NCBI GenBank assembly: GCA_022969815.1
Contig: GCA_022969815.1_4535.1
Direction: 5' to 3' (one strand)
Source of the DNA: Escherichia coli
GTDB lineage: Bacteria > Pseudomonadota > Gammaproteobacteria > Enterobacterales > Enterobacteriaceae
Length of the DNA stretch: 64,000 nucleotides
Each line of letters starts with the position of its first letter. Position 1 is the stretch's first letter. The translations under genes were made by a program, and so were the position numbers. This document shows positions 974 to 18,835 of this stretch, piece by piece. A model generated the notes under the pieces. That model was not told the origin of the DNA and made no database searches. It worked only from the letters and a program-made list of their open reading frames with translations.

Positions 974-1164
974 GAATCCGTATCTATATAATTGATGATA
1001 GTTTTGGTGTACGTTATGATGACGAACGTCGATTCGCACCTATGAGCAGCGTACATCCCCCAAGCATTTTAGCAAGTTTACGGAAAGATTATTCTTATGA
1101 AACTTGTAATAGTTTCGGTTTTGAGATTCTTTCAGATATAGAATTTAATGAGGAAGAAGAATGA
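970..1164 (+). CDS. hypothetical protein
   Basis: ATGA start/stop overlap with upstream gene (translational coupling); acidic C-terminus. Confidence 0.5.
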   Translation: MRIRIYIIDDSFGVRYDDERRFAPMSSVHPPSILASLRKDYSYETCNSFGFEILSDIEFNEEEE

Positions 1165-1334
1165 AAATTTTACGAGTGAGCATCGAAACAGCTTGGTGTG
1201 GATGTAGTGAGGTTGTTGATATTGAGATTGAAGAGGATATGTCTCAAGAAGATATCGAAGATCTTGCAAAAGAAACATTCCAGGATTATTGTAACTACGG
1301 GTTCCATATTTTAGAGGAGGGAGAAGATGTTTAA
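1161..1334 (+). CDS. hypothetical small acidic protein (57 aa, below ORF-track cutoff)
   Basis: ATG at 1161 overlapping upstream stop; stop TAA 1332-1334 overlaps next start at 1327; fills an otherwise empty gap. Confidence 0.4.
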   Translation: MKILRVSIETAWCGCSEVVDIEIEEDMSQEDIEDLAKETFQDYCNYGFHILEEGEDV

Positions 1335-1530
1335 CTACGAGAACGACCCTAACATTATCCAGTTAACTCGACAAGAACTGATCACAATCATGGAAGATGC
1401 TTTTATCGATGGGTGGAAGACTCAAAACTATGATTGGAGTGGCCCAGAAGACTTTCTGCGTCTTCATAAAGAGTATGACGAGTCCAGTGAGACGACTATT
1501 GCCATTGACGATCTTAAGGCAGGTGTATAA
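1327..1530 (+). CDS. hypothetical protein
   Basis: GGAGG upstream of ATG; tightly packed operon. Confidence 0.55.
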   Translation: MFNYENDPNIIQLTRQELITIMEDAFIDGWKTQNYDWSGPEDFLRLHKEYDESSETTIAIDDLKAGV

Positions 1531-2099
1531 TGGGTTGCTTTAGTTTTCTGTGTAAGGAGTCGGGCAAAGCTGCCCTCTCCACCTCTTTCGATGGATCTCC
1601 TTGCTATCTCTTTCTACTGAAAGATGGAAAGGTTATCGAAGAGATGCACGGCAATTATGATAGTTATGGGCGTGTCTTCTCCAGTAAGCAGGATGCTCAC
1701 GGGAACAGAGAAAGCTTTAAATGGACTATACCTTGGAGCGACGTTTGTGATCTTATGTTCTCTGTAAACCGTGGAGACGGTATTGCTATGGTTTTAGCAG
1801 AACACTTTACAGGAGAAGCCCCCACAGAACGATCCGAGGATGATCCTAATCAAGGTTGGGGAGACGGAGAAGAAGAGGAAGAAGAGGATTATTTCTACAG
1901 CACCGAAAATAATATTTTCAAACGTGTTGACAACCCTTATCATAAAGTGCATAATGTCCTCACTGAAACAGAAGACGACAAAATGGAAATTGAAGAAGAT
2001 GATCCTCTTGTAACACTGCCTACAAGCGAGTTACAAAAAATCATCAAAGAAGCTTACGATTTGGGCTTCAAAACTGGTAAAGGAGGAGTTAATGTTTGA
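1530..2099 (+). CDS. hypothetical protein with poly-Glu acidic stretch
   Basis: ORF with overlapping start/stop coupling; EEEEEED run. Confidence 0.55.
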   Translation: MGCFSFLCKESGKAALSTSFDGSPCYLFLLKDGKVIEEMHGNYDSYGRVFSSKQDAHGNRESFKWTIPWSDVCDLMFSVNRGDGIAMVLAEHFTGEAPTERSEDDPNQGWGDGEEEEEEDYFYSTENNIFKRVDNPYHKVHNVLTETEDDKMEIEEDDPLVTLPTSELQKIIKEAYDLGFKTGKGGVNV

Positions 2100-2364
2100 T
2101 TTTAAAATAAAAGATTCAAAACCCCAAGACGTAGCGGTTCGCTTCGAAGAGTTGGGGATTGGTGAAACTTTCATGTATTATTCAGCATACGAAGAAAATG
2201 GTTTGGATACATTTGCAAACTTAGTATTTCTTAAAAGCGGCGGCGCGACTGCTGTTTGTTTGAATAGTTCATCAAGAGGGAGTGTTCATACCGTATCCCC
2301 AGATGTGCCGATGGTTGCAGTTCGTTTAGTAGTTACCGATATTACACTTACAGAGGAGAAATAA
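2092..2364 (+). CDS. small protein, paralogue A of duplicated cassette (pairs with 3386..3667)
   Basis: N-terminus MFDFKIKDSKP and internal YSAYEENGLD match MLNFAIKKDSKP and KSAYDEDGLDP in the 3386 ORF. Confidence 0.55.
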   Translation: MFDFKIKDSKPQDVAVRFEELGIGETFMYYSAYEENGLDTFANLVFLKSGGATAVCLNSSSRGSVHTVSPDVPMVAVRLVVTDITLTEEK

Positions 2365-2365
2365 T

Positions 2366-3166
2366 ATGTCCAATAAAATTAGCCTGAAGAAACGCCAAGA
2401 CACCCTGACCATTTCACTGAAGAAAAAGAAAATCGTGAACGAAGATCAAAAGATCGTTCTGCGTGTTGCAAGTGCACTGGATATCTCCGGTAGCATGTCC
2501 AGCCTGTATCGTAACGGTACTGTAAGTGAGTTTGTTGGTAAGTTGCTTCCGTTTGGTATGCTGTTCGATGATAACGCGCAGATCGATATGTGGGCTTTCA
2601 ACAATAGCTCTCGTGAAATCACTCCAGCAACTGCTGATGTGTATGATGATTACGTTGGTAAATGCATTAATGGTCGTGTAACAGTCCAGGGTGGCACAAG
2701 CTATGCACCTGTTATGCAGGATATTTACGATTCCTACTTCGGTAGCACCACTAAATATGAAACTGTAGAAACTCCTGTAACCAAAGAAGTTCCTAAGAAA
2801 GGTTTCTTCAACCGTTTACTGGGTAAAACTGAAACTGTAGAAGCTGTTGTAGAAAAAACTGTAGCCGTTGCTGTGCCTGGTGTAGACGTTACTCCGGCAG
2901 TTGTGTTCTTCCAGACAGATGGTGAGAACGATGATCCGAGCCGTGTACTCTCCGTACTGGAAAAGAACAAGGGTAAACCTATCTACTGGTTCATGGTGGG
3001 TGTTGGTAGTGCTCGTTTCTCTTTCCTGAAAGATTTGGCTGAAGCTTACGACAACGTAGCATTCATTGGTCTGAACGATCTTTCCTTGACAGACGAGCAG
3101 CTTTACGATAAACTCTTGTCTGAAGAGTTCGGTGAGTGGGTCGAAAAGGTTGGTGCTAAGAAATGA
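2366..3166 (+). CDS. vWA-domain protein with TerD-like N-terminal tag (TerY-like)
   Basis: N-terminus MSNKISLKK...ISLKK nearly identical to the TerD ORF at 3683; DxSxS MIDAS-like motif (DISGSMSS) typical of von Willebrand A domains. Confidence 0.6.
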   Translation: MSNKISLKKRQDTLTISLKKKKIVNEDQKIVLRVASALDISGSMSSLYRNGTVSEFVGKLLPFGMLFDDNAQIDMWAFNNSSREITPATADVYDDYVGKCINGRVTVQGGTSYAPVMQDIYDSYFGSTTKYETVETPVTKEVPKKGFFNRLLGKTETVEAVVEKTVAVAVPGVDVTPAVVFFQTDGENDDPSRVLSVLEKNKGKPIYWFMVGVGSARFSFLKDLAEAYDNVAFIGLNDLSLTDEQLYDKLLSEEFGEWVEKVGAKK

Positions 3167-3405
3167 TCGACACGCTGATCTCTCAAACGGTGTTACAAGT
3201 GATGCGCGAGAGAGAAGCTTTCATCATGAAGGGTCTTAAAGATTACTTTGGGACTCTTTCTTTGGAAGAACTCAAGCTACGCGTTGAAATCCATCAGTAT
3301 CCTTTTTATGAAGAATGGATTGACAAAGCAAATAAAGCTGTTATAATGCGTATCAACAAACCAGAAATCACGACAGGAGGACAAGATGTTAAATTTCGCC
3401 ATTAA
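3163..3405 (+). CDS. hypothetical protein
   Basis: ORF overlapping upstream stop. Confidence 0.5.
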   Translation: MIDTLISQTVLQVMREREAFIMKGLKDYFGTLSLEELKLRVEIHQYPFYEEWIDKANKAVIMRINKPEITTGGQDVKFRH

Positions 3406-3667
3406 GAAAGATAGCAAACCAGAGATTCAGACTTGTCGCATTGCAAATCTTACACATCGGGATTTGTTTGTTCTGAAAAGCGCCTACGATGAAGACGGTC
3501 TTGACCCAGAAGCAGTCATCGTTTATATGGTATTGCGGCGAGACGAAGACACCAAGCACCCATATAATGCGGTAGAAATGAATTACAATGCAATGTTGTG
3601 TTCAATACACCATACGGCAGAGTTGGTGCAGGTAGAGTTAACAGTTAACGAAATTAAACTTAAATAA
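3386..3667 (+). CDS. small protein, paralogue B of duplicated cassette
   Basis: Shares N-terminal and internal motifs with 2092..2364; sits immediately upstream of the TerD gene in the same arrangement. Confidence 0.55.
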   Translation: MLNFAIKKDSKPEIQTCRIANLTHRDLFVLKSAYDEDGLDPEAVIVYMVLRRDEDTKHPYNAVEMNYNAMLCSIHHTAELVQVELTVNEIKLK

Positions 3668-3682
3668 TAGAGGAGACATATA

Positions 3683-4285
3683 ATGAGCGATAAAATTTCC
3701 CTGAAAAAAGGTTCCACCGACAAGATTTCCCTGAAGAAAGTTGCTCCGGCACTGAAAGAACTGCGTCTGGAGTTCTCCTGGAAATCAAACTCTAAACTGG
3801 ATCTGGATGTAAGCGCACTGGTATGCCGACACAACGCTTCTGGCAACCCTGAAATGCTGTCTGCACGTCATCTGGTTTGTTATGCTAACAAGTTTGATCC
3901 AGAACGTTCTGTATTCGCGGGTGATGATGTTCGTGACGGTACTGGTCAAATGGAACAGATCGATGTAACCTTGGCTAAGATCTCCGATAAAGCCGAAGAG
4001 ATTGCTTTTGTCCTGACTATTGATGATGAAACGGGTCAGAAACGTCTGGGTCACGCTACTGAAGGTATGCTGAAGATTTTCGATTCCGAACGTAACGTAG
4101 AGATCCTGGACTTCGACTTCCTGGCTCCTGAAGTAGCTGGTAACACGATCTGCCACGTAGCTTCCTTGGTTCGTGAAGACGGCGAATGGAAACTGAAAGC
4201 TTACGGTGTTGGTAAAGCAGGTATGGATATCTGTGATGTGGTTATGGCCTTCGGTGGTCAGAAAGAATGGTATGATTGCCCGTAA
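3683..4285 (+). CDS. TerD-family protein (tellurium-resistance / Ca-binding TerD domain)
   Basis: ISLKK repeats at N-terminus, GDDVRDGTGQ Ca-binding-like motif, GEWKLKAYGVG near C-terminus; matches my recollection of bacterial TerD; RBS AGGAGA upstream. Confidence 0.65.
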   Translation: MSDKISLKKGSTDKISLKKVAPALKELRLEFSWKSNSKLDLDVSALVCRHNASGNPEMLSARHLVCYANKFDPERSVFAGDDVRDGTGQMEQIDVTLAKISDKAEEIAFVLTIDDETGQKRLGHATEGMLKIFDSERNVEILDFDFLAPEVAGNTICHVASLVREDGEWKLKAYGVGKAGMDICDVVMAFGGQKEWYDCP

Positions 4286-4382
4286 GATTTAACTGAAATG
4301 TTGTTGGGGGAGAAATCCCCCATTGCAAAAACGCCTCTCATGTGTTATACTGGTAGTTCATTCACCCAAAAGGAGGCAAAAT

Positions 4383-4904
4383 TTGCTGATAAAAAACTTT
4401 GTAACAGTTGCGTTACTATCCTTAACTGCTTTTACATTTACACCTGTCACGGCAACCGCCGAAGCTGCAAACGTAAAGACTGCTAAAGTAGTTCACAAAT
4501 GTGCAAAGCAAGATACTAAAGAAAATCTCTTAGCTTGTGCAATTTACGCTGAAAGTCGTAATCAGGGTAAACGTGGAATGTATGCTGTAGGTAACGTAGT
4601 ATTGAACAGGAAAGGTGATGATTACTTCCCTGACAATATTAAAGATATTCTCTTCCAACGGGGACAATTCTCTTACAGGAAGAAGTTTAACGTTACTGAA
4701 GCAGAGCGATGGAAAGAAGCTAAAGCTATCGCAAAACGACTTATATACCTGGATACAAACTTCCCTACACTTAGAGAAGCCCAGGACATGACAAAAGGTG
4801 CGACATTTTTTAAGAAAGTAAAAACCCGTGCACACTGGACAAAAGATATGGTCTTAGTGTATCGTTATAAAGAACATCAGTTCTACTCACCGACAAGGAG
4901 CTAA
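4383..4904 (+). CDS. SleB-like cell wall hydrolase with N-terminal signal peptide (endolysin candidate); likely TTG start at 4383
   Basis: AAGGAGG at 4371-4377 followed by TTG 4383; hydrophobic signal VTVALLSLTAFTFTPVTATAEA; CAIYAESRNQ...GMYAVGNVVLNR resembles the SleB/Hydrolase_2 family. The ORF track shows a longer 4323 start. Confidence 0.55.
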   Translation: MLIKNFVTVALLSLTAFTFTPVTATAEAANVKTAKVVHKCAKQDTKENLLACAIYAESRNQGKRGMYAVGNVVLNRKGDDYFPDNIKDILFQRGQFSYRKKFNVTEAERWKEAKAIAKRLIYLDTNFPTLREAQDMTKGATFFKKVKTRAHWTKDMVLVYRYKEHQFYSPTRS

Positions 4905-5420: not shown

Positions 5421-5592
5421 TACAGGGGAACTTTCTCTTGAGAACGTAACAAACGACAAACTGATTAAAATGCGAGATGTAGCTTTGGATCATCTCCAAG
5501 ACTCCTTCAAGGAATATATGGAAGCACGGGATCGTGTGCTTGAGATTCGTCAAGCAATGGTTAAACGCGGAATGGTAGTGGATTCTAAGTAA
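5398..5592 (+). CDS. hypothetical protein (start chosen at internal ATG preceded by GGGGG)
   Basis: Track ORF 5317..5592 overlaps the previous gene heavily; ATG 5398 reduces the overlap to 23 nt. Confidence 0.35.
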   Translation: MKTNGINNTGELSLENVTNDKLIKMRDVALDHLQDSFKEYMEARDRVLEIRQAMVKRGMVVDSK

Positions 5593-5601
5593 GGGGTTAG
5601 T

Positions 5602-6165
5602 ATGATTTATTATATTACCCCGTATCTGACTGGAGATATCGGCAAAGCAATTAACGATGCTATTGCCGTTCTTCATGAAGATAGTTGGGTGTGTTTACGT
5701 GATACAGATACCATGTTCTTACTGCCAGACCAACCTTCCATGTTGGAAGATTTGGTAGCAACCAACCCACCGTTCGATGTAATCGGTGCATCCTGTAACC
5801 GTTTAGGCAGTAGTTATCAACTCCTCGGCGGAAAGATTGATGATGATCCTGACATTCTGAACCATATTTCTCATGCCAAAGTTGCTCGTGATTACTATGG
5901 TGATGAAATTGAGGAAGTCCCACAAGGCACTCCCTTGGCAGGTTTCTTCCTATTGTTCAGGAAATCATTATGGAAGGAGATCCCTTTTGAAGAACGTAGC
6001 ATCCAGTTCGATATAATCTTCTCAAACACTTTACATGAACGAGGGAAAAGGTTAGGATTGATGCGTGGGATGTATCTCTTCCACATTTACCGTTTAGGTC
6101 AAAAAGATCCTCAACGGGCAATATCACACCTCATGCATTGTCATGATCACCGGAAAACTATTTAG
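5602..6165 (+). CDS. hypothetical protein (possibly glycosylation-associated)
   Basis: ORF directly upstream of the glycosyltransferase block. Confidence 0.5.
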   Translation: MIYYITPYLTGDIGKAINDAIAVLHEDSWVCLRDTDTMFLLPDQPSMLEDLVATNPPFDVIGASCNRLGSSYQLLGGKIDDDPDILNHISHAKVARDYYGDEIEEVPQGTPLAGFFLLFRKSLWKEIPFEERSIQFDIIFSNTLHERGKRLGLMRGMYLFHIYRLGQKDPQRAISHLMHCHDHRKTI

Positions 6166-6173
6166 GGGGAAAG

Positions 6174-6857
6174 ATGGAAAATGTTAAAATTGGGGTTGGC
6201 GTTATCACTGTAGGCGTTCGTCCACTTAAAGATTACATGGTTGCACCTGGTGTAGACTTCAAAGTGTTTCACGATCCCGATCGTAAAGGTGTAGCTTATG
6301 CTCGCAACCAATTGATGAAACAGTTCTACGATGAAGGTTTTGACTACTGGTTTATTTTCGACGATGATTGCTATCCAGTTAAACGTGGTTGGGAAGAATA
6401 CTTCGTTAACCAGGCTGTCGAGAATGGTTGGGACTTCTTCGGTATGCCAGAATACTTCAAAGATACTGTGATCGGTTGTTCTGGAGAAGTAGTCTTCTGG
6501 GAATTGGCTATGTGTCAGTTTGCAATGTATTCTCGTGCAATTGTTGAGACGATGGGTTATTTCCGCCCGTATACGCACGGATATGGTTTTGAAGATGCGG
6601 AATGGACTAACCGTCTGAAAGCTTCAGGTTTGAATAAAGGACTCCAGGGCGTACCTTGCCCGATGCGCATTATGGCGTACATTCACCCCGACGATGTTTT
6701 CGGAGACAACCCTTTACCTTTTGCGAATCTGACGAAAGAAGAGAAAGAAGCAGCAATCGGGATCAACTGGGAAGAATACAAACTATCTTTGGAGGATATC
6801 AATAATGGCAAAACATACATCTCTTTTGAAGAGGCTGAAGGATATGGCGTTAAATAA
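6174..6857 (+). CDS. putative GT-A-like glycosyltransferase
   Basis: DDD (DxD-like) motif in FIFDDDCYP; GGAAAG RBS-like upstream. Confidence 0.4.
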   Translation: MENVKIGVGVITVGVRPLKDYMVAPGVDFKVFHDPDRKGVAYARNQLMKQFYDEGFDYWFIFDDDCYPVKRGWEEYFVNQAVENGWDFFGMPEYFKDTVIGCSGEVVFWELAMCQFAMYSRAIVETMGYFRPYTHGYGFEDAEWTNRLKASGLNKGLQGVPCPMRIMAYIHPDDVFGDNPLPFANLTKEEKEAAIGINWEEYKLSLEDINNGKTYISFEEAEGYGVK

Positions 6858-7791
6858 GAAACCAACCCTACTGTGCGATAACAAATTCAACAGTGGTTGT
6901 GATTATCATCGCATTGTTATGCCATTTTCTCACATAGAGATCAAGCCACGTACTGATGTACTGGTCTTTAACCGCATCTTCTCGAAAGGTTCTGATGAAG
7001 TAGCCAAACTTAAGCGTCAAGGTGTTAAGATTGTTGTAGATTTGGATGATTTCTATCAGTTGAATCCAGAGCACTACCTTGCGCATCTGTACGCGCCAAA
7101 CACCCGCACCATTGTGGAAATGGTTAAATTGGCAGATGCGGTCATCGTGACAACAGAATACCTGGCATATAAAATTCGTCACTTAAACTCTAATGTTGTT
7201 GTGATCCGAAATGCTCTACCGTTCGATGATGACCAGTTCACTCTCTCGAATGATCGTACTTCGGGTACGCCTATTATCTGGGCTGGAGGTGCAAGTCATG
7301 AGCCTGATTTACGTTTGCTTTCAAATACTTTTGATGATAGTCTGTTGTCTATCGCAGGGTATGAAGCGAGCAGCACAGTGACAGGGCAAGAGTGGGTTAA
7401 GATTCGCCGTAGTTTGCCTAATGCGCAGTATAAACCTGCTGTACATTCTTTGGATGAGTATATGTCGGCATACGATGGTCACGCTATGGCGGTAGCCCCG
7501 TTAGTAGATAATGACTTCAACCATTGCAAGAGCAACCTGAAAGTATTAGAAGCTGGTGCTAAAGGCATTCCAATCGTTTGTTCTAAGGTATTACCTTACT
7601 ACAACCCGATCGATGCCCGTGCAGTAACCTTCGCAGATAGCAAGGCAGAGTGGCACTATGAAGTTGTAAAACTACTTCGTAATCCAAACTACCGTGAAGA
7701 TCGTGGACTGTTCTTGGCTGAACATGTTCGTACTCATTACAACTTGAAGGATGCAAACGAATTGCGTCGTCAAGTGATCGAAAGTCTATAG
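6805..7791 (+). CDS. putative GT-B fold glycosyltransferase, tandem paralogue 1
   Basis: C-terminal LEAGAKGIPIVCS resembles the GT-B EX7E region; strong similarity to the next ORF (CDYHRIVMP, PFDDDQFTL, YDGH..APL.DN.FN.CKSNLKVLEAGAKG); true start may be the internal ATG near 6844. Confidence 0.5.
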   Translation: MAKHTSLLKRLKDMALNKKPTLLCDNKFNSGCDYHRIVMPFSHIEIKPRTDVLVFNRIFSKGSDEVAKLKRQGVKIVVDLDDFYQLNPEHYLAHLYAPNTRTIVEMVKLADAVIVTTEYLAYKIRHLNSNVVVIRNALPFDDDQFTLSNDRTSGTPIIWAGGASHEPDLRLLSNTFDDSLLSIAGYEASSTVTGQEWVKIRRSLPNAQYKPAVHSLDEYMSAYDGHAMAVAPLVDNDFNHCKSNLKVLEAGAKGIPIVCSKVLPYYNPIDARAVTFADSKAEWHYEVVKLLRNPNYREDRGLFLAEHVRTHYNLKDANELRRQVIESL

Positions 7792-8742
7792 GTGTCTATG
7801 GGACAAATTATTCTTGACAATCGTGCTGGAAAAGAATATAGTGTCTGCGATTATCACCGAGTAATGCTGCCTTACACAAGGCAGTTCTCGGCTCAACCGT
7901 CACAGAACGTATATGTCTTTAACGGTGTCCCTACAAAAGGGAAACAAGGTTTCATAGCCCTTAAGAGCATGGGTTTTAAGATGGTAATGGATTTGGATGA
8001 CTCCTTAAACATTCCTCAAGGACACATGCTGGAAGACATTTTTGATGCAGGTATTCGAGAAGACTTGCAATGGTTTCTTGAACGTAGCGATCTTGTGACG
8101 ACAACAACACCTGCTCTCCAGGTGGAACTGTCCCAGTACAATCCTAACGTACATATTATTCCAAATGGCTTACCGTTTGATGAGGATCAGTTCACGTTAA
8201 CTCGTGATCGCTATTCCAAATCGCCGATAGTATGGGCTGGAAGTGAAACACATAAACAAGATTTAGCTCTACTGCCGAATTTTGGAAGGGATTTAACAAT
8301 CTGCGGATTCCGTAGAGATAGTGAAGTCTTAAGTAGTAAGCAATGGACTGACATACGTGAAAAAGTGGCTCCAAGCTGCAATTATGAGGCTGTTAGACCA
8401 TATGAGAGCTATATGGAATCTTATGATGGTCATCAAATAATGCTTGCGCCTTTGACCGATAACCTGTTTAATAACGCCAAAAGTAACCTTAAGATTCTGG
8501 AGGCTGGTGCCAAGGGTCTGCCTTTGGTCTGTTCTCCTCGTGAGAATTACTTCACAGAAGAGTTTAAGGATTTACTGTTCTTTGCAGAATCAAGAAGTGA
8601 ATGGGAAGATATTGTTAATTACCTGATCCAAGAACCTGATGTGGGGATCGAGAAGGGATTGGCTTTAGCTAAATATGTTCGTAAGCATTATCACATTGAT
8701 GTGCTGAATGAACGCCGTAGATTATTATTTGAGGAGCTATAA
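7792..8742 (+). CDS. putative GT-B fold glycosyltransferase, tandem paralogue 2 (start GTG 7792 or ATG 7798)
   Basis: Shares motifs with paralogue 1 (CDYHRVMLP, PFDEDQFTL, YDGH..APL.DN.FNNAKSNLKILEAGAKG). Confidence 0.5.
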   Translation: MSMGQIILDNRAGKEYSVCDYHRVMLPYTRQFSAQPSQNVYVFNGVPTKGKQGFIALKSMGFKMVMDLDDSLNIPQGHMLEDIFDAGIREDLQWFLERSDLVTTTTPALQVELSQYNPNVHIIPNGLPFDEDQFTLTRDRYSKSPIVWAGSETHKQDLALLPNFGRDLTICGFRRDSEVLSSKQWTDIREKVAPSCNYEAVRPYESYMESYDGHQIMLAPLTDNLFNNAKSNLKILEAGAKGLPLVCSPRENYFTEEFKDLLFFAESRSEWEDIVNYLIQEPDVGIEKGLALAKYVRKHYHIDVLNERRRLLFEEL

Positions 8743-9020
8743 TGCTGAATACTTTTGATTTTGAGTACACTACGAAAAGTGGTTTTAATGTTGTGGTGGA
8801 AGTTGATTATTACTACGAAGAACCTGATCCACACTCACGGGAAAGTGATTGGGATTACCACGGTGGGTTACTGATCGACGGTATCCGTTTCTATGCGGGT
8901 CTGGAACAGCTTGATGCGGAAGATATTAACGTGACCGTAACAGAAATCGCATACCAATTCAAAAAACATATGGAGGCATTAGAAGCCGCGTACATGATGG
9001 AAACTAACGAATCATTTTAA
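8742..9020 (+). CDS. hypothetical protein
   Basis: ATGA-coupled ORF. Confidence 0.5.
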   Translation: MLNTFDFEYTTKSGFNVVVEVDYYYEEPDPHSRESDWDYHGGLLIDGIRFYAGLEQLDAEDINVTVTEIAYQFKKHMEALEAAYMMETNESF

Positions 9021-9032: not shown

Positions 9033-10814
9033 GTGACACACATTATAACGAAATATGGATTTGATGTTGATCTTAGCAGGGAAGGGCACACTGGCTGTCC
9101 ACGCTGCATGAAAAATGGCAAGGATCGCTCTCGTAATAACCTGATGGTTTATGGATTGGATTCTAACGGTGAGCATAAAGGAGCTAAATGCTTTGCGTGT
9201 GAGTACACAATCCCCAGCGTTGAATGGTTAAGAGAGAATGGTGAAGTTTTAGAAGAAGAGGAGGATATTGTGGGTTCGGAATTTAATAAAGAGATTCATC
9301 GTAAGATTGTAGAAGAAACAGGTACTAACCCACGAGGCTACCGTGGGATCAAGGAAGAATATTCTAAATTCTACGGTGTTCGTTACCAGTATAAACAAGA
9401 AGAATCTAATCTTGTTGTGGAACATACTTTGTATCCAACAACTATCGGTAAAGAACTGGTAGGTTTTAAGCGTCGTATCCATCCTAAAGACTTCTCCAAG
9501 CCCATTGGTCAAGTAGGTAAAGATGTAGATTTGTTTGGACAATTTCGTTTCCTTGAGCGTTCCCATACCGTAATCATTACTGGTGGTGAACATGATGCCT
9601 TGGCAGCATATCAAATGTTGGCAGAAGGTCTTGACAGGAAATATGAATTACCAGCAGTAGTTAGTGGCACAACTGGTGAAACCAGTATGTACAAACAGGT
9701 ACAGGCACAGTACCCTTTCTTTGAGAAGTTCAAGAAGATCATCGTCTGCATGGATAATGATAAAGCAGGTAAGGAAGCTTTTGAGAACATTGTAAAAGTG
9801 TTGCCTCGTAATAAAGTTTACCTGATGAAGATGGAACTGAAAGATGCTAATGAATACCTGTTGCAAGATAAAGCAAAAGACTTTGTGAAGGCTTATTGGG
9901 GTGCAAAACTCTATACCCCAGCAGGTGTTTATGCTTCAAACGAACTTTATGAAGCTGCAATGGATTGCTTGGATGCACAAGTGATCACTCTCCCTCCGTT
10001 CATGCGTACTGCTGCGAACATGTTGGGTGGTGGTCTGGTAGAAGAAGAGATCACAGTTATTCTGGCTAAAACGAGTATCGGTAAGACGTTGATGGTGAAT
10101 GAGATCACCAAACACATTATCGTAGCTCATCCAGAACATGTGTTGGGTATTCTGTCCCTGGAAGCAACGTATAAGAAATACTCACGTAACCTTCTTTCTT
10201 CGTTCCTGCATATTCCTTTGCATCGTAAGACTAAGGAAGAAAAGGCTGCGATCCTGGAAGAGAACAAGGAAGCTATTAATAACTTCTACGTTCGTGAAGA
10301 TGGTTCTCCTCGCTTCTTTGTCTGTGATGACCGTGGTGCAGACATTGATTCAATCAAGGAGAAGGTGCTGGAGATGATTATCTACTTTGGCATTACCATC
10401 TTGGTAATTGACCCATACTCGGATCTGTTGTCGGGGATGAGTGTTCAGGAACAAGAAGAATTGGCAACGTGGTTGAAGCGCATCATGAAAGAATATGGCA
10501 TTACGATCATCGTGATCTCTCACGTTAAGAAAGCTGCGAACAATGGTAATGAGCACTTAACCGAAGATGATGCAATGGGTAGTAGTTTCTTGGCAAAAGG
10601 TGCAGGTATTACACTGGCACTGGAACGAGATAAAGCCGCAGAAGACCCTGTTGAGCGCAACACAACTCATTGTTATATCTTGAAAAACCGTGAGTTCTCA
10701 GAAACTGGTCCTGCTGGACAATTCTATTACGATATTAAAACTGCCACACTGCACGACAAAGCACAGTATTTTGCTAATCCTGATAATGCAGGTGGTGCAG
10801 AAGGCGCATATTGA
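9033..10814 (+). CDS. DNA primase-helicase (zinc-ribbon primase N-terminus fused to a DnaB-like helicase)
   Basis: CPRCMKNG...CFAC zinc ribbon, central primase-like region, C-terminal helicase-like region; RBS AGGAGAGGA before GTG start; gene ends at a terminator hairpin. Confidence 0.75.
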   Translation: MTHIITKYGFDVDLSREGHTGCPRCMKNGKDRSRNNLMVYGLDSNGEHKGAKCFACEYTIPSVEWLRENGEVLEEEEDIVGSEFNKEIHRKIVEETGTNPRGYRGIKEEYSKFYGVRYQYKQEESNLVVEHTLYPTTIGKELVGFKRRIHPKDFSKPIGQVGKDVDLFGQFRFLERSHTVIITGGEHDALAAYQMLAEGLDRKYELPAVVSGTTGETSMYKQVQAQYPFFEKFKKIIVCMDNDKAGKEAFENIVKVLPRNKVYLMKMELKDANEYLLQDKAKDFVKAYWGAKLYTPAGVYASNELYEAAMDCLDAQVITLPPFMRTAANMLGGGLVEEEITVILAKTSIGKTLMVNEITKHIIVAHPEHVLGILSLEATYKKYSRNLLSSFLHIPLHRKTKEEKAAILEENKEAINNFYVREDGSPRFFVCDDRGADIDSIKEKVLEMIIYFGITILVIDPYSDLLSGMSVQEQEELATWLKRIMKEYGITIIVISHVKKAANNGNEHLTEDDAMGSSFLAKGAGITLALERDKAAEDPVERNTTHCYILKNREFSETGPAGQFYYDIKTATLHDKAQYFANPDNAGGAEGAY

Positions 10815-10815
10815 T

Positions 10816-10848
10816 TCAGAAGGGGCGCAAGCCCCTCTTGACTTTTGA
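10816..10848 (+). terminator. rho-independent terminator-like hairpin
   Basis: GAAGGGGC-GCAA-GCCCCTCTT stem-loop followed by a T-rich stretch. Confidence 0.5.
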
Positions 10849-10897
10849 TTGAGGAATGTGATACCCTTCAGGTTGAGTTACATAATATGGAGGACTA

Positions 10898-13495
10898 ATG
10901 AGTAAGTTTACATGGGATATTGAAGCAACCGCATTACTGAACAATGACACAATTGATTACCTGGCAAGCCCTTATCGATTGAAAGACACTTTTGGTATGC
11001 ATTGTATTTGTCTGGAAAACCACGAAACAGGAGAGATCATTGCTTTTCACGATGGTCCTAAGTACATTTTCGATGGTCGTCCTTATGAAGAGTCTGACGG
11101 TAAGTACACTTATGTACTGAAGGAGTATGTGGCACAAGAATACACACACTTTCCTCTGGCAGATTTTCCAGATTTTGTCAACCATACAGGCAAGTTCGCA
11201 GATAAGCCTGAATACCTCGTAGAAATGGCTGTAGCCCATAACGGCATCAACTATGACCACTTGGCAGTTAAGCTTTACTACGGGCTGAATTACAGCGTTA
11301 AATACAACACTTGGGGTGATTCAAAAGTTAAGATTATTGATACCTTAATCCTTAGTAAAGTATTGAACCCTGATCGCAAGGTTGATGGTAAACCTGGACA
11401 CAACTTGAATGCCCTTTCTAAAAAAGCTGGCGGGGATGTTAAGATCGATTTCCGTAAAGAGATTCCAGAAGGAGAGCGATTCAAGACGTTCGCCGCAGAT
11501 ATGTTGTACTACTGTATCTACGACAACAAGGCAACTACAGCAGTATATTATTACCTCATGGAAGAATGGGGTGATTATAAGAAGTGGCAAGAGCCGTTCG
11601 ACTTGGAGCAACGTATTGCGGATATCATCACCCGTCAAGAACACCGTGGCTTTAAGTTCAACATGCAACAAGCTGAACAGAACCTGGAATTCTTGGACAA
11701 AGAAATGGAACGTCTACGTTTGTTGGTAGAGCCTATTCTTCCACCTAAACCAGCGACTAAAGGTTATCTGAAAGATTTTATTCCACCGAAACTTCAAATC
11801 AAGAAGAACGGTGAGCCAACAAATCATATCATCAGGTTTGCGGAGAAACATGGCGGTAGCCTTGAAGAACGTGAAGGTGATTGGTGGCTGCTTGTTTTAG
11901 ATAAAGAGTTTAAGTTACCGATCTCAAGTGAAGAACCTATTTGTGAACCTACCATTCCGTCTACACTGAATGATACGACACACATTAAAAACTGGCTTGT
12001 AGGTTTGGGTTGGGTTCCGTCTGAATATAAAGACAAAGACTTGACGCTTAAATCTGGTTCGAAGATCAAGAAAGATCCTGACGACTTAGAGAAAGGTATT
12101 CTGTCTTATGTCAAACAAACTCTGGAAAGCAACTTCTGTAATGATCGTTGCGAACACTTACAAGCTGATGCTGAAACATTAGAGCTTAGAATCCGTGAAC
12201 GTCTGGCTAAAGGGAAAGGTCGTGGTCTTAAAGTGCTGACCAACCCATGCTTCACGAAGGGGCAGGAGAAAGAGATTTGTCCTAATCTTGAAGCACTGGG
12301 CGAGAAGTTCCCGTATGCCACGCAGATTGTGCAGTACCTGACGTACAAACATCGTCGAAACTCTATTTTGGGCGGTGGTGCAGATTGGGAAGACGATGAG
12401 GAAGATCAAGAATACGATAAAGGCTTCTTAGCAGCAGTTCGTGCCGATGGTCGTATATCGACTCCAGCGGCTACGTGTGACGCTGCAACATCTCGTATGA
12501 AGCATCGCTCTGTTGCGAACGTTCCTCGCGTTACATCGTTGTTTGGGTACGAAATGCGTAACTTGTTTGGGGTAGAAACACCGCGTTACTTCCAGATCGG
12601 TTATGACTTTGACTCCTTGGAAGCAAAGATTGAGTCGCATTATTGTTGGCGCTACGAACCGGAGCCTCATGAATATTGTAACGCTCTCTTGTTGGAGAAG
12701 CCTAACGATGTTCATACCATGATGGCAAGACGTATCACAGAAACTATTGGACGTAAGTTTGAACGTAGTCCAGCTAAATCTGTTAAGTACGGGATTACAT
12801 ATGGAGCACAGGCAGACAAGGTTGCTAAGACAATTGGTAGTGATAAGTACACAGGACAACTGGTGTTTGATGCATTCTGGGAAGCGGCTTTCCCGTTAGC
12901 ACAACTGAAAGAGAAGTTGAATGCTTTCTGGGTTAACACTGGCAAGCAGTATGTTCTCGGTATCGATGGACGTAAAGTCCCAACACGATCTGCACATGCA
13001 ATCTTAAACTCACTGTTCCAAAGTGGCGGGGTTATCTGTGCTAAACGTGCAATGGTGATTTATGACGATATGATCGAAGAGGAAGGTTTAGCTGTTGACT
13101 TCTTCGTTGACGACTGGAAGAATAAAGACTTCGTTCAGCAAATGATCGCTTACCACGATGAAGCGCAGCTTGAAGTATCTCGTAACTTGGTGGAATTTAA
13201 ATGGTTCTCCAAAGAATCTTTAGGTTGGGTTAAAGTGGATGACGAGAAAGAGCAGAAGAAAATAGATGCGGAATGTCTTGCAAAAGCTAACGAATGGAAG
13301 CATAATAAAGAGAAAGAGACAGGGCAGATTTGGGCTAACGTTCACGAATCACCTAAAGGTGGTTGGTTTACCGCTTACAGTCGTGCCGGAGAACTTGCTT
13401 CTCTTGCTGTTATCAAAGCTGGGGAATATTACAAACTAAATGTTCAGCTTACTGCTGGATACGATGTTGGTAGTTCCTGGGCGAGCTGTCACTGA
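10898..13495 (+). CDS. DNA polymerase, family A (Pol I-like) with 3'-5' exonuclease domain
   Basis: 865 aa; N-terminal WDIEAT exonuclease motif (DxE); RBS GGAGGA 8 nt upstream. Confidence 0.8.
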   Translation: MSKFTWDIEATALLNNDTIDYLASPYRLKDTFGMHCICLENHETGEIIAFHDGPKYIFDGRPYEESDGKYTYVLKEYVAQEYTHFPLADFPDFVNHTGKFADKPEYLVEMAVAHNGINYDHLAVKLYYGLNYSVKYNTWGDSKVKIIDTLILSKVLNPDRKVDGKPGHNLNALSKKAGGDVKIDFRKEIPEGERFKTFAADMLYYCIYDNKATTAVYYYLMEEWGDYKKWQEPFDLEQRIADIITRQEHRGFKFNMQQAEQNLEFLDKEMERLRLLVEPILPPKPATKGYLKDFIPPKLQIKKNGEPTNHIIRFAEKHGGSLEEREGDWWLLVLDKEFKLPISSEEPICEPTIPSTLNDTTHIKNWLVGLGWVPSEYKDKDLTLKSGSKIKKDPDDLEKGILSYVKQTLESNFCNDRCEHLQADAETLELRIRERLAKGKGRGLKVLTNPCFTKGQEKEICPNLEALGEKFPYATQIVQYLTYKHRRNSILGGGADWEDDEEDQEYDKGFLAAVRADGRISTPAATCDAATSRMKHRSVANVPRVTSLFGYEMRNLFGVETPRYFQIGYDFDSLEAKIESHYCWRYEPEPHEYCNALLLEKPNDVHTMMARRITETIGRKFERSPAKSVKYGITYGAQADKVAKTIGSDKYTGQLVFDAFWEAAFPLAQLKEKLNAFWVNTGKQYVLGIDGRKVPTRSAHAILNSLFQSGGVICAKRAMVIYDDMIEEEGLAVDFFVDDWKNKDFVQQMIAYHDEAQLEVSRNLVEFKWFSKESLGWVKVDDEKEQKKIDAECLAKANEWKHNKEKETGQIWANVHESPKGGWFTAYSRAGELASLAVIKAGEYYKLNVQLTAGYDVGSSWASCH

Positions 13496-16079: not shown

Positions 16080-16108
16080 TCTTATTGATTTATAAAGAGT
16101 TTTTATAA

Positions 16109-16142
16109 AAGAAAAGGGAACCTTTGCGGGTTCCCTTTTTTA
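16109..16142. terminator. bidirectional rho-independent terminator between convergent genes
   Basis: AAAAGGGAACC-TTTGCG-GGTTCCCTTTTTTATT, with A-run and T-run flanking a perfect stem. Confidence 0.7.
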
Positions 16143-18818: not shown

Positions 18819-18835
18819 TTTTATCCTCCATAAAA

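What the first reader, a model, noticed from the sequence alone, without database searches (positions are those of the whole stretch)
5602..8742. Glycosylation block with tandemly duplicated GT-B-like glycosyltransferases beside the replication genes
Two adjacent ORFs (6805..7791 and 7792..8742) are clear paralogues sharing several motifs, including a C-terminal LEAGAKG(I/L)P(I/L)VCS segment reminiscent of GT-B transferases. They follow a GT-A-like ORF with a DDD motif (6174..6857). Their position just upstream of primase-helicase and DNA polymerase raises the possibility of DNA base glycosylation (anti-restriction hypermodification) rather than surface polysaccharide modification. Duplication suggests two sugar linkages or sequential transfers.
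Basis: inference. Interest (0 to 1): 0.55.

Follow-up and report, generated by a model that had tools for sequence, protein, structure and literature searches.

The report
Four-glycosyltransferase cassette in a coliphage
A large E. coli-type phage carries four sugar-transferring enzymes in a row, two of them old duplicates; they probably build a short rhamnose-containing sugar chain on something other than DNA, and that target is still unknown.

Summary
Window 5602-8742 holds four consecutive + strand genes:
- ORF1 is a putative GT-A-like transferase.
- ORF2 is a GT-A with an FDDD motif.
- ORF3 and ORF4 are GT-B paralogues (41% identity, E 4e-77).

The window is a Stephanstirmvirinae-like myophage, 96.6% identical to phiWec188 and PsgM04F. 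The same cassette sits before the primase-helicase in Phapecoctavirus and in phi92-like phages. Public records already annotate it as glycosyltransferase x4.

The DNA-glycosylation reading is not new (Olsen 2020) and is not supported here:
- The GT-B model resembles GT4 enzymes (PglA, MshA, BshA, GtfC, TarM), not T4 AGT/BGT.
- No ThyA-family hydroxymethylase or hydroxylase exists in the window or in the closest relative, whose thymidylate synthase is ThyX.
- Phi92-like BASEL phages are described as exceptionally restriction-sensitive, and one of them (Bas62) was checked here and carries the same cassette.

Close relatives encode a complete RmlABCD pathway. The GT-B family occurs in at least 563 viral contigs. 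There it usually lies just upstream of terminase or portal, beside methyl- and acetyl-transferases and ORF2-like GT-As.

Best reading is a soluble glycan-assembly line acting on a non-DNA acceptor. Virion proteins are the leading guess and host envelope glycans the main rival. Interest is moderate.

The parts
5602..6165 (+). ORF1, 187 aa. Putative small GT-A-like glycosyltransferase with a nearly invariant D34-x-D36. Soluble, pI 5.7.
   Evidence: phrog_14179 'glycosyltransferase' E 4e-103 and phrog_26101 E 1e-24. No Pfam, NCBIfam or PDB-sequence hit. 34 homologues, all on phage-like contigs. Conserved motifs. Retained with an ORF3-type GT-B in Klebsiella relatives. The transferase assignment is the weakest of the four.
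6174..6857 (+). ORF2, 227 aa. GT-A fold glycosyltransferase with motifs R44 ... D63-D64-D65 ... E140-D141. Soluble, pI 4.6.
   Evidence: AF2 model pLDDT 88. Best solved folds are STIV A197, vaccinia H3, TarP, B4GALNT1 and collagen GalT. phrog_2456 E 4e-75. Pfam hits are all below cut-off: Glycos_transf_2 19.7 bits, TAGT 18.5, Glyco_transf_7C 15.8. Homologues lie next to ORF3-type GT-B genes in unrelated small phages.
6805..7791 (+). ORF3, 328 aa (or 315 aa from the ATG at 6844). GT-B glycosyltransferase, the ancestral-type copy.
   Evidence: 41% identical to ORF4. phrog_7162 E 1e-138. Pfam Glyco_trans_1_2 22.1 bits, below the cut-off of 25. Single-copy homologues in other phages are consistently closer to ORF3 than to ORF4: KP2025 60% vs 40%, L011 50% vs 40%.
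7792..8742 (+). ORF4, 316 aa (probably 314 aa from the ATG at 7798). GT-B glycosyltransferase, the derived duplicate restricted to the lineages that also carry rml genes.
   Evidence: AF2 model pLDDT 96.3, pTM 0.93. Best solved folds are GT4 retaining enzymes. Pfam Glyco_trans_1_2 29.8 bits, above the cut-off of 25. Invariant residues D67 D69 D70 H78 N125 H154 D157 K230-S-N-L-K234 E237 R309 are shared with ORF3.
8742..9020 (+). ORF5, 92 aa, acidic (pI 4.1), function unknown. It always lies between the cassette and primase-helicase. Whether it belongs to the glycosylation system is uncertain.
   Evidence: phrog_4240. Homologues in the same position in Bas62 (65%), KP2025 (48%) and L011. Absent next to the GT pair in small phages.
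3320..3347 (+). Consensus sigma-70-type promoter (TTGACA, 16 nt, TG-TATAAT). Putative start of the early transcription unit that contains the cassette.
   Evidence: 12 of 12 match with extended -10. The total number of promoter-like sites in the region is not above shuffles, so function is inferred from the perfect match and from the tight gene packing downstream.
10821..10836 (+). Terminator-like GC hairpin (AGGGGC-GCAA-GCCCCT) followed by a T-rich tail, just after primase-helicase. Putative end of the unit.
   Evidence: Inferred only.

Best explanation
The block is a soluble, cytoplasmic glycan-assembly line of four enzymes: ORF1 and ORF2 with GT-A fold, and ORF3 and ORF4 with a GT4-like GT-B fold. 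Together with the phage's own dTDP-L-rhamnose pathway (RmlABCD, encoded outside the window in the closest relatives), it builds a short oligosaccharide that probably contains rhamnose. The acceptor is not DNA.

The ORF3-type GT-B is the conserved core enzyme and probably recognises the acceptor. ORF1, ORF2 and the derived duplicate ORF4 add or vary further sugars. Cassette size tracks sugar supply: two transferases and no rml in Klebsiella relatives, four transferases plus rml here.

The most likely acceptor is one or more phage structural proteins. That would give a glycan coat on the virion, as shown for some mycobacteriophages and for giant and archaeal viruses.

Shown here: the enzyme folds, the paralogy, conservation across genera, the rml pathway in relatives, the absence of ThyA-family enzymes, and the genomic contexts.

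Inferred: the order of transfers, the use of rhamnose, and above all the acceptor.
For: 1. The four genes are real and conserved. The same order and position are found in Phapecoctavirus (ORF4 81% aa), Justusliebigvirus/phi92 (73%) and Bas62. Amino-acid identity exceeds nucleotide identity (99% vs 96.6% to phiWec188), which indicates purifying selection.

2. Folds. The GT-B model resembles GT4 enzymes, including the protein O-glycan enzymes GtfC/Gtf3 and SdgB. The best solved match of the GT-A model is STIV A197, and TarP is also a hit. From my own memory of the literature, not checked here, STIV has a glycosylated capsid protein.

3. All four proteins lack hydrophobic segments, and three are acidic. 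They are cytoplasmic enzymes and are not typical DNA binders.

4. PsgM04F has RmlA, B, C and D, all above NCBIfam equivalog cut-offs. RmlA is also present in phiWec179/190, Phapecoctavirus and phi92-likes, and no Klebsiella phage appears among the RmlA matches; one Klebsiella relative (KP2025) was checked and has only two transferases. Relative L011 has an NAD-dependent sugar epimerase/dehydratase inside the cassette.

5. Contexts elsewhere. The GT-B family is in at least 563 IMG/VR contigs. Of the 80 best loci, 73 have no primase-helicase next to the GT-B. In 46 of those 73, a terminase large subunit or portal gene lies 0.7-6 kb downstream on the same strand. Recurrent neighbours are an ORF2-like GT2 (22 loci), a SAM methyltransferase (22), a hexapeptide acyltransferase (13) and further small conserved proteins. 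Similar arrangements are seen in L005, L007, L008/9, L012 and Streptomyces phage KimJongPhill (UDP-glucose dehydrogenase, methyltransferase, GT, then terminase). This is the make-up of a glycan-tailoring island attached to the morphogenesis module.

6. Evidence against DNA as acceptor is given under the rival explanations.
Against: - No direct evidence for any acceptor.
- In this window the cassette is not in the structural module. It lies in an apparently early unit with TerD, a cell-wall hydrolase and primase-helicase, behind a consensus sigma-70 promoter. That fits DNA or host-directed functions at least as well.
- Adjacency to terminase in other phages is ambiguous. DNA hypermodification genes and accessory 'moron' genes also collect there, and DNA hypermodification is said to occur late, up to packaging (PMC13326640 abstract).
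- The 80 loci are phylogenetically redundant, so the count of 46 of 73 overstates independence.
- No Ser/Thr-rich acceptor-like tracts stand out in the structural proteins of the window.
- I found no report of glycosylated virions for any coliphage within ten full-text searches, and the phi92 paper was not available.
- GT4 enzymes are usually retaining, whereas common alpha-L-rhamnosides are made by inverting enzymes. Which enzyme, if any, uses dTDP-rhamnose is open.
Confidence: 0.35

Rival explanations
1. DNA base glycosylation. The transferases would attach rhamnose-containing sugars to hydroxylated pyrimidines in phage DNA as protection against nucleases.
For: - The cassette lies in the replication region, in a probable early unit with primase-helicase and polymerase.
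- The rml cluster in relatives lies among nucleotide-metabolism genes: thioredoxin, ribonucleotide reductase, ThyX.
- The N-terminal 60 residues of ORF2 match phrog_842 'beta-glucosyl-HMC-alpha-glucosyltransferase' (E 2.5e-7) and weakly match Pfam TAGT (18.5 bits).
- ORF2 has R...DDD...ED, close to the R...DDD...EDY/F motif of proven DNA GT-A enzymes. Those enzymes also hit TarP in fold searches.
- The ThyX homologue is divergent: 331 aa, only 30 bits to TIGR thyX.
Against: - The phi92-like BASEL phages are described as exceptionally sensitive to restriction-modification systems (PMC8594841), and Stephanstirmvirinae are listed among RM-targeted families. One of these phages, Bas62, was checked here and has the same four genes.
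- No ThyA-family enzyme is found in six-frame translations of the window, of 126 kb of PsgM04F, or of 90 other loci with this GT-B (seeds validated).
- No TET/JBP or hydroxymethylase is annotated in the PHROG-annotated relative.
- The thymidylate synthase passes the Pfam Thy1 (ThyX) cut-off.
- The GT-B shows no sequence or top-50 fold relation to T4 AGT/BGT.
- The TAGT score is below its gathering threshold.
- The proteins are mostly acidic.
Confidence: 0.1
2. Remodelling of host envelope glycans. The soluble transferases would act at the inner face of the membrane on LPS core, enterobacterial common antigen, O-unit or capsule intermediates. This would alter the very glycans these phages use as receptors, giving superinfection exclusion or protecting progeny from adsorbing to debris.
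For: - GT4 and GT2-like enzymes with a dTDP-rhamnose supply are the standard toolkit of O-antigen, core and capsule synthesis. PglA, PimB', TarM and TarP are among the structural matches.
- Early expression is likely.
- Relatives use ECA and the first outer-core glucose as receptors (PMC8594841). RmlA/RmlB share the dTDP-4-keto-6-deoxyglucose intermediate with ECA Fuc4NAc synthesis (established pathway knowledge).
- TarP is a phage-borne precedent.
Against: - The cassette has no flippase, polymerase, ligase or membrane protein, and none of the four proteins has a membrane segment.
- These are strictly lytic phages with short cycles, so replacing surface glycan would be slow.
- In small phages the GT pair sits between terminase and portal, that is, in late operons, where changing the host surface would come too late.
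- Known seroconversion systems (Gtr) use different, membrane-bound enzyme families (own knowledge).
Confidence: 0.25
3. Another non-DNA acceptor: a small molecule, a host protein or an RNA. Candidates include the nucleoside-like product predicted for the neighbouring Ter/PRTase module, or a defence-system signal that becomes glycosylated.
For: - The cassette is syntenic with a TelA / vWA-TerF / TerD module. In relatives this module extends to HAD hydrolase, PRTase_3, Macro and TerC, and PRTase_3 lies 2 kb from the cassette in L011.
- The GT4 matches MshA, BshA, TreT and GlgM act on small molecules.
- Early expression is likely.
Against: - The GT-B plus GT-A pair occurs in many phages that show no Ter module nearby. 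Linkage is therefore confined to one phage family, where it may simply reflect conserved gene order.
- Four transferases plus a deoxysugar pathway is a lot of machinery for tagging a metabolite.
- No precedent was found.
Confidence: 0.15

Closest known systems
T4 alpha- and beta-glucosyltransferases (hmC-DNA glucosylation; Pfam AGT and T4-Gluco-transf)
   Same: Phage-encoded, soluble, GT-B fold, and located among early or replication genes. T-even phages also have a second-step enzyme that extends the first sugar, so several transferases can work in series.
   Different: - No sequence, profile or top-50 fold similarity.
- No dCMP hydroxymethylase partner.
- Relatives are restriction-sensitive.
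- The donor supply here is a dTDP-deoxyhexose pathway rather than host UDP-glucose.
TET/5mYOX- or ThyA-associated phage DNA glycosyltransferases (Pfam TAGT; bioRxiv 10.1101/2023.12.21.572611; arabinosyl-5hoC systems, PMC13326640)
   Same: ORF2 is a small GT-A with R...DDD...ED motifs and a TarP-like fold, as described for those enzymes. Epimerases and secondary transferases also accompany those pathways.
   Different: - The TAGT score is 18.5 bits against a threshold of 27.5, and covers only 38 residues.
- No 5mYOX, C5-methyltransferase or ThyA homologue is nearby or elsewhere in the genome.
- The authors themselves regard GT contigs without such partners as less likely to modify DNA.
Mycobacteriophage virion glycosylation (Che8, Rita and others; Freeman et al. 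2023, cited through PMC11256854)
   Same: Lytic-cycle, phage-encoded soluble transferases, sometimes with methyltransferases, that decorate capsid proteins. Distant homologues of ORF3/4 occur in Streptomyces and Arthrobacter phages next to terminase, with a sugar dehydrogenase and a methyltransferase.
   Different: - The host here is Gram-negative.
- The cassette lies in the early/replication region rather than beside the structural genes.
- Identity to the actinophage proteins is only about 26%.
- Whether those particular actinophage homologues glycosylate virions is not known either.
Glycosylation machinery of archaeal and giant viruses (STIV A197; PBCV-1 and mimivirus capsid or fibril glycosylation with virus-made rhamnose)
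   Same: STIV A197 is the best solved structural match of ORF2 (E 6e-6). Giant-virus GT2/GT25 proteins are among the best viral matches. The virus encodes its own deoxysugar nucleotide pathway. The giant-virus rhamnose pathway is cited from my own knowledge.
   Different: - TM-scores are low (0.44-0.52) and sequence identity is about 15%.
- The acceptor of A197 is itself unproven.
- The giant viruses make UDP-L-rhamnose; this pathway makes dTDP-L-rhamnose.
Bacterial GT4-family retaining transferases (PglA, MshA, BshA, PimB', TarM, GtfC, SdgB; Pfam Glycos_transf_1 clan, Glyco_trans_1_2/CgeB-like)
   Same: Two-Rossmann GT-B fold. The C-terminal nucleotide-sugar segment ...LEAGAKG.P.V... is equivalent to the EAMA.G.PV segment of GT4. 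ORF4 passes the Pfam Glyco_trans_1_2 threshold.
   Different: - Short for the family (about 315 aa).
- Only 11-16% identity to the solved structures, with TM about 0.6.
- The first Glu of the GT4 E-x7-E motif is replaced: the family has K-S-N-L-K-x-L-E.
- The family has its own conserved N-terminal motifs, H22-R23 and D67-x-D69-D70.
- It appears to be found mainly on phage-like contigs.
Phage seroconversion systems (GtrABC) and TarP
   Same: Phage-borne glycosyltransferases that alter the glycans phages use as receptors. TarP is a structural match of ORF2.
   Different: - Those systems are carried by temperate phages and expressed in lysogens.
- Gtr proteins are membrane-embedded, whereas none of the four proteins here has a membrane segment.

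Membership tests
T4 beta-glucosyltransferase / alpha-glucosyltransferase (DNA hmC glucosyltransferases) | Sequence or profile match to the family | tested here: not met
   No Pfam hit to the T4 BGT or AGT families at E <= 0.1. The only PHROG hit is phrog_7162. A profile of 73 homologues against all PDB sequences finds only MshA (E 0.004) and weaker GT4 hits.
T4 beta-glucosyltransferase / alpha-glucosyltransferase (DNA hmC glucosyltransferases) | Closest fold is T4 BGT or AGT | tested here: not met
   In the Foldseek PDB search the top 50 matches are GT4-type enzymes (E 2e-9 to 1e-6), with no T4 enzyme among them. The generic GT-B fold is shared.
T4 beta-glucosyltransferase / alpha-glucosyltransferase (DNA hmC glucosyltransferases) | Partner enzyme that makes a hydroxylated pyrimidine (ThyA-family dCMP/dUMP hydroxymethylase or 5hoC synthase) | tested here: not met
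   phmmer with E. coli ThyA and T4 gp42 found no hit in six-frame ORFs of the window, PsgM04F 1530-128000 and 90 other loci. The seeds were confirmed against the PDB. The thymidylate synthase of the relative is ThyX (Pfam Thy1 37.3 bits against a cut-off of 24.8).
T4 beta-glucosyltransferase / alpha-glucosyltransferase (DNA hmC glucosyltransferases) | Virion DNA carries glycosylated bases and resists restriction | not testable with these tools
   Literature only. The phi92-like BASEL phages are 'exceptionally susceptible' to RM systems (PMC8594841); Bas62 was checked here and has the same cassette. No data exist for this phage itself.
TET-associated glycosyltransferases (Pfam TAGT, PF20691) | Score at or above the Pfam gathering threshold | tested here: not met
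   ORF2 scores 18.5 bits against a cut-off of 27.5, over residues 36-73 only.
TET-associated glycosyltransferases (Pfam TAGT, PF20691) | Neighbouring 5mYOX/TET dioxygenase and C5-cytosine methyltransferase | tested here: inconclusive
   None is annotated in the PHROG-based annotation of the 96.6%-identical PsgM04F genome, and none was found by Pfam among the neighbours tested. Not every ORF was scanned against a TET profile.
TET-associated glycosyltransferases (Pfam TAGT, PF20691) | Active-site motifs R...DDD...EDY/F | tested here: inconclusive
   ORF2 has R44, D63-D65 and E140-D141, followed by Ala, Ser, Thr or Ile instead of Tyr/Phe. The motif is also shared with TarP, so it is not specific for DNA.
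GT4-like GT-B transferases (Pfam Glyco_trans_1_2, PF13524) | Pfam gathering threshold | tested here: met
   ORF4 scores 29.8 bits against a cut-off of 25. ORF3 scores 22.1 bits, below the cut-off, but is 41% identical to ORF4.
GT4-like GT-B transferases (Pfam Glyco_trans_1_2, PF13524) | Two-domain GT-B fold closest to GT4 structures | tested here: met
   pLDDT 96.3. GlgM, PglA, MshA, BshA, PimB' and TreT match at probability 1.00, TM about 0.6.
GT4-like GT-B transferases (Pfam Glyco_trans_1_2, PF13524) | E-x7-E motif of GT4 | tested here: not met
   Only the second Glu (E237) is kept. The first position falls in the invariant K230-S-N-L-K234 segment (read directly from the sequence).
GT2-like GT-A transferases (Pfam Glycos_transf_2) | GT-A fold with DxD motif; Pfam threshold | tested here: inconclusive
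   For ORF2 the fold and the DDD motif are met, but its Pfam score is 19.7 against a cut-off of 23.3. ORF1 has a D-x-D but no Pfam or PDB match, and no structure model was made for it.
Phage virion-glycosylation systems (actinophage type) | Transferase genes linked to the structural module | tested here: not met
   In the window the cassette lies before primase-helicase, about 7 kb from the nearest tail gene, which is on the other strand. The feature is met for homologues in other phages: 46 of 73 loci have terminase or portal downstream.
Phage virion-glycosylation systems (actinophage type) | Glycans covalently attached to capsid or tail proteins | not testable with these tools
   Needs mass spectrometry or glycan staining of virions.
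Seroconversion Gtr systems | Membrane-embedded GtrA flippase, GtrB and a GT-C transferase | tested here: not met
   The maximum 19-residue Kyte-Doolittle hydropathy is 0.5-1.3 for all five proteins, so there are no membrane segments.
dTDP-L-rhamnose pathway (RmlABCD) as donor supply | All four enzymes present | tested here: inconclusive
   Present in the closest relative PsgM04F above NCBIfam equivalog cut-offs: RmlA 465, RmlB 431, RmlC 246, RmlD 245 bits. RmlA is also in phiWec179/190, Phapecoctavirus and phi92-likes. They are not inside this 64 kb window, which ends in the ligase gene about 14 kb short of that cluster.

The most novel reading that the evidence does not exclude
The cassette and the phage Rml pathway put a sparse or site-specific glycan, probably rhamnose-containing, on DNA. 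The acceptor would be made by an enzyme outside the known ThyA and TET routes, for example the divergent 331-aa ThyX homologue. The modification would not block the type I-III restriction systems tested in BASEL but would counter other defences. This would be a new chemistry of phage DNA hypermodification in a common family of therapeutic coliphages.
Probability: 0.07. Interest if true: 0.8.

Novelty: new member of a known kind. Interest (0 to 1): 0.4.

Why it matters
Stephanstirmvirinae (phAPEC8-like and phi92-like phages) are frequently isolated, broad-host-range coliphages and are used in therapy cocktails. They all keep four transferases plus a complete deoxysugar pathway, about 6 kb of genome, and nobody knows what gets glycosylated.

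- If the target is the virion, this would be, as far as I could find, the first glycan-coated coliphage. That has direct consequences for antibody recognition, serum half-life and mucus binding.
- If the target is the host envelope, it would be a lytic-phage route to receptor masking.
- The GT-B family is also widespread (at least 563 viral contigs) and entirely uncharacterised. One experiment on a tractable E. coli phage would annotate a large family.

As it stands, the finding is an already annotated cassette, and the published DNA-modification hypothesis for it looks weak.

Tried and rejected
- **afdb50 fold search.** The library was not available, so a search of the viral BFVD library was run on the ORF2 (GT-A) model instead.
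- **PDB sequence-profile searches for ORF1 and ORF2.** Only chance-level hits.
- **NCBIfam for all five proteins.** Nothing.
- **Literature.** There is no experimental paper on these genes. The phi92 genome paper (PMC3457257) and Freeman 2023 (PMC10527164) are not held. The supplement of the DNA-GT preprint does not list phi92 or phAPEC8. The 5hoC paper does not mention these phages or ThyX. 'Rhamnose' in the END-nuclease preprint refers to an inducer.
- **Scan for Ser/Thr-rich acceptor tracts in the window's structural proteins.** Nothing stands out.
- **Charge and hydropathy.** Useful only to exclude membrane proteins; acidic pI is weak evidence against DNA binding.
- **ORF5 as a carrier or acceptor protein.** Rejected for lack of evidence. 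It is conserved only within this phage family, beside primase-helicase.
- **Functional link to the Ter/PRTase module.** Kept only as a low-probability rival, because the GT pair occurs without a Ter module nearby in other phages.
- **Not run.** The representative-library HMMER job was not used.

Full report
**What the window is**

The region 5602-8742 is 96.6% identical in nucleotides to Escherichia phages phiWec188 and phiWec190 and to 'Pseudomonas' phage PsgM04F. It is about 76% identical to some sixty Phapecoctavirus genomes. The window is therefore part of a roughly 150 kb Stephanstirmvirinae-like myophage. Public records already annotate the four genes as 'glycosyltransferase (x4)'. In the BASEL phage Bas62 they are called 'putative glycosyltransferase' (x2) and 'putative disaccharide synthase' (x2).

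**Checking the observation**

- The ORFs are present as described.
- ORF3 (6805-7791) and ORF4 (7792-8742) are paralogues: 41% identity over 303 residues, E = 4e-77.
- Both contain the LEAGAKG(I/L)P(I/L)VCS segment.
- ORF2 (6174-6857) has the FDDD motif.
- ORF1 (5602-6165) lies inside the finding's coordinates but was not discussed. It is a fourth putative transferase: phrog_14179 at E 4e-103, with a conserved D-x-D.
- The genes are packed tightly or overlap. They are followed by a conserved 92-aa acidic ORF, then primase-helicase and a family A polymerase.

**Anatomy of the enzymes**

*ORF4 (GT-B).*
- An AlphaFold2 model built on 73 homologues is very confident: pLDDT 96.3, pTM 0.93. It shows a two-Rossmann GT-B fold.
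- Its best solved matches are GT4-type enzymes: GlgM, PglA, MshA, BshA, PimB', TreT, GtfC/Gtf3, SdgB and TarM. E-values run from 2e-9 to 1e-6 and TM is about 0.6. No T4 glucosyltransferase is in the top 50.
- A profile of the family against all PDB sequences finds only MshA, marginally.
- ORF4 passes the Pfam Glyco_trans_1_2 threshold, while ORF3 falls just below it.
- Sixteen columns are invariant across the family, and both paralogues keep all of them: D67, D69, D70, H78, N125, H154, D157, G172, P220, K230-S-N-L-K234, E237 and R309. Both are therefore probably active.
- The classical GT4 E-x7-E motif is only half retained.

*ORF2 (GT-A).*
- The model (pLDDT 88) is a compact GT-A.
- Its best solved matches are STIV A197, vaccinia H3, TarP, B4GALNT1 and the collagen galactosyltransferase.
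- Among viral models, the best matches are unnamed phage proteins and giant-virus GT2/GT25 enzymes.
- Its Pfam hits (Glycos_transf_2, TAGT, Glyco_transf_7C) are all below threshold.

*ORF1.* It has no Pfam, NCBIfam or PDB match. Its assignment rests on the PHROG labels, the D-x-D motif and its constant company.

*All four proteins.* None has a membrane segment, and three are acidic.

**Evolution of the cassette**

- The four-gene arrangement, in the same place, is shared by Phapecoctavirus (ORF4 81% aa) and by Justusliebigvirus/phi92-like phages (73%). Each has two GT-B copies.
- More distant myophage relatives have smaller versions:
  - Klebsiella phage KP2025 has ORF1 plus one GT-B.
  - L004 has ORF1, ORF2 and one GT-B.
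  - L011 has ORF1, an NAD-dependent sugar epimerase/dehydratase, ORF2 and one GT-B.
- Single-copy homologues are always closer to ORF3 than to ORF4. ORF3 is therefore the ancestral core enzyme and ORF4 a derived duplicate.
- The closest relative, PsgM04F, encodes RmlA, B, C and D, all above NCBIfam equivalog cut-offs. The cluster lies beside thioredoxin, ribonucleotide reductase and a thymidylate synthase.
- This cluster falls about 14 kb beyond the end of the window.
- RmlA is present in phiWec179/190, Phapecoctavirus and phi92-like phages, but no Klebsiella phage appears among the RmlA matches. The four-gene cassette and the rhamnose pathway therefore go together.

**Where else the enzymes occur**

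- The GT-B family is common in viral metagenomes.
- I called ORFs in the 80 best loci, clustered them and labelled the clusters with seeds and Pfam.
- Seven loci are Stephanstirm-like, with primase-helicase directly downstream.
- In 46 of the other 73, a terminase large subunit or portal gene lies 0.7-6 kb downstream on the same strand.
- The recurrent immediate neighbours are:
  - an ORF2-like GT2 (22 loci);
  - a class I SAM methyltransferase, Methyltransf_23 (22 loci);
  - a hexapeptide acyltransferase (13 loci);
  - two conserved proteins without Pfam matches.
- Individual look-ups show the same pattern:
  - GT-B followed by an ORF2-like GT-A, between terminase and portal in small phages (L005, L008/9).
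  - GT-B just before terminase (L007).
  - An ORF1-like gene with three more GT-A genes and an FkbM-type methyltransferase near a portal gene (L012).
  - In Streptomyces phage KimJongPhill: UDP-glucose dehydrogenase, methyltransferase and GT, then terminase.
- The loci are not independent, because many come from one phage lineage. Even so, several different architectures agree. This is a glycan-building and glycan-tailoring island, usually attached to the packaging and morphogenesis end of the genome.

**Testing the DNA-glycosylation idea**

The idea is not new. Olsen et al. 2020 proposed rhamnose glycosylation of hydroxymethylated nucleotides for exactly these phages (PMC7552041). Four lines of evidence speak against it.

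1. Maffei et al. [quoted passage not shown] A 2026 preprint lists Stephanstirmvirinae among RM-targeted families. Of the phi92-like BASEL phages, I checked Bas62, and it has the same four genes in the same place.
2. A DNA glycosyltransferase needs a hydroxyl on the base. phmmer with E. coli ThyA and T4 dCMP hydroxymethylase found nothing in six-frame translations of the window, of PsgM04F 1530-128000 or of 90 further loci. Both seeds were confirmed against the PDB. Window and relative together cover the whole genome.
3. The only thymidylate synthase is a ThyX homologue (Pfam Thy1 above threshold). No TET/JBP enzyme is annotated.
4. The GT-B shows no relation to T4 AGT/BGT beyond the generic fold.

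Points in favour are weak.
- The first 60 residues of ORF2 match the PHROG of the T-even second-step glucosyltransferase (E 2.5e-7), and match TAGT below threshold.
- Its R...DDD...ED motifs resemble those of proven DNA GT-A enzymes.
- However, those motifs and the TarP-like fold are shared with non-DNA enzymes. The authors of that study consider GT contigs without a 5mYOX or ThyA partner less likely to modify DNA.
- Sparse or unusual DNA modification cannot be excluded from sequence.

**Expression context**

A perfect sigma-70 consensus (TTGACA, 16 nt, TG-TATAAT) lies at 3320-3347. A terminator-like hairpin lies at 10821-10836, just after primase-helicase. Between them the genes are tightly packed, so the cassette is probably part of an early unit read by host polymerase. 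This is inferred, and the total count of promoter-like sites is not above shuffles. Early expression fits a host-directed or DNA-directed role somewhat better than a virion-directed one. It is the main reason for keeping the confidence low.

**Most likely mechanism**

- The four soluble enzymes, fed by host UDP-sugars and by phage-made dTDP-L-rhamnose, assemble a short oligosaccharide in the cytoplasm on a non-DNA acceptor.
- The ORF3-type GT-B, the only component common to all versions, probably makes the first, acceptor-specific linkage. The GT-A enzymes and the ORF4 duplicate extend or vary the chain.
- I put about 0.6 on 'a glycan on a non-DNA acceptor'.
- Within that, I favour phage structural proteins (overall about 0.35) because of three things: the recurrent attachment of the family to morphogenesis genes, the tailoring enzymes that accompany it, and the viral precedents. 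These precedents are mycobacteriophage capsids (via PMC11256854), STIV A197, and giant-virus rhamnose pathways (the last from my own knowledge).
- Host envelope remodelling is next, at about 0.25.
- Another acceptor, such as a small molecule linked to the neighbouring Ter/PRTase module, is about 0.15.
- DNA is about 0.1.

**Comparison with known systems and novelty**

- The enzymes belong to ordinary fold classes, GT-A and GT4-like GT-B. The system is of a known general kind: a virus-encoded glycosylation cassette with its own nucleotide-sugar supply.
- It is not a member of the T4 AGT/BGT, TAGT or Gtr families by the tests above.
- The specific protein families (phrog_7162, 2456, 14179) are uncharacterised and seem to occur mainly in phages.
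- I rate it a new member of a known kind, already annotated and already discussed in the literature, with an open and experimentally easy question attached. Interest is 0.4.

Noticed in passing
window 11-973, 2366-3166, 3683-4285 (+); L001 (PsgM04F) 710-3960 and 5481-6071: A Ter-type 'tellurite resistance' module sits just upstream of the cassette: TelA, vWA-TerF-like and TerD. In the closest relative it continues beyond the window start with a HAD hydrolase, PRTase_3 (ComF-like), a Macro domain protein, TerC and an SprT-like protease. The same order is seen in KP2025 and L011. Its function in a lytic phage is unknown.
   Followed up: partly
window 3320-3347 (+) and 10821-10836 (+): A perfect sigma-70 consensus promoter with extended -10 lies inside ORF 3163-3405. 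A GC hairpin with a T-rich tail lies right after primase-helicase. Together they may delimit one early transcription unit holding TerD, the hydrolase, the cassette and primase-helicase.
   Followed up: no
window 4323-4904 (+): A SleB-like cell-wall hydrolase (Pfam Hydrolase_2, E 5e-17) has a hydrophobic N-terminal leader and is annotated as endolysin in relatives. It lies in the apparently early unit, far from the Rz-like spanin gene near the terminase.
   Followed up: no
window 10814-10898; L001 17216-18109; L002 13307-14542: The gap between primase-helicase and DNA polymerase is a hot spot for insertions. It is empty in the window, holds an endonuclease gene in PsgM04F, and holds a small ORF plus an N6-adenine methyltransferase before a much longer polymerase gene (3.3 kb) in phage anhysbys.
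   Followed up: no
L003 (PsgM04F) 15619-18894 compared with window 7792-8742: RmlA is 98% identical in amino acids between the window's lineage and Phapecoctavirus, whereas ORF4 is only 81% identical. This points to recent exchange of the rml cluster between lineages.
   Followed up: no
L003 (PsgM04F) 24241-25846 (-): The thymidylate synthase is a long (331 aa), divergent ThyX homologue: 30 bits to TIGR thyX, and Pfam Thy1 above threshold. It is followed by an NT5C-like deoxynucleotidase. Whether it is an ordinary ThyX was not examined further.
   Followed up: partly
records OR584014 (PsgM04F), MG065645 (Campylobacter phage A145), OP562383 (Acinetobacter phage ABPW7): Phages labelled as infecting Pseudomonas, Campylobacter or Acinetobacter match coliphage sequence closely here. 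PsgM04F is 96.6% identical to the window, the same identity as the coliphages phiWec188/190, and A145 and ABPW7 match at the same identity as the phi92-like and Phapecoctavirus coliphages. The host labels look doubtful.
   Followed up: no
window 8742-9020 (+): A small acidic protein (92 aa, pI 4.1, phrog_4240) is always found between the cassette and primase-helicase in Bas62, KP2025 and L011. Its function is unknown.
   Followed up: partly
L032-L095 (IMG/VR loci), genes directly flanking the GT-B: Two conserved neighbour families have no Pfam match. One is about 245 aa, has a DxDxT HAD-like start and is found in 32 loci (cluster count). The other is about 215 aa and is found in 16 loci. They accompany the GT-B upstream of terminase in many environmental phages.
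   Followed up: partly
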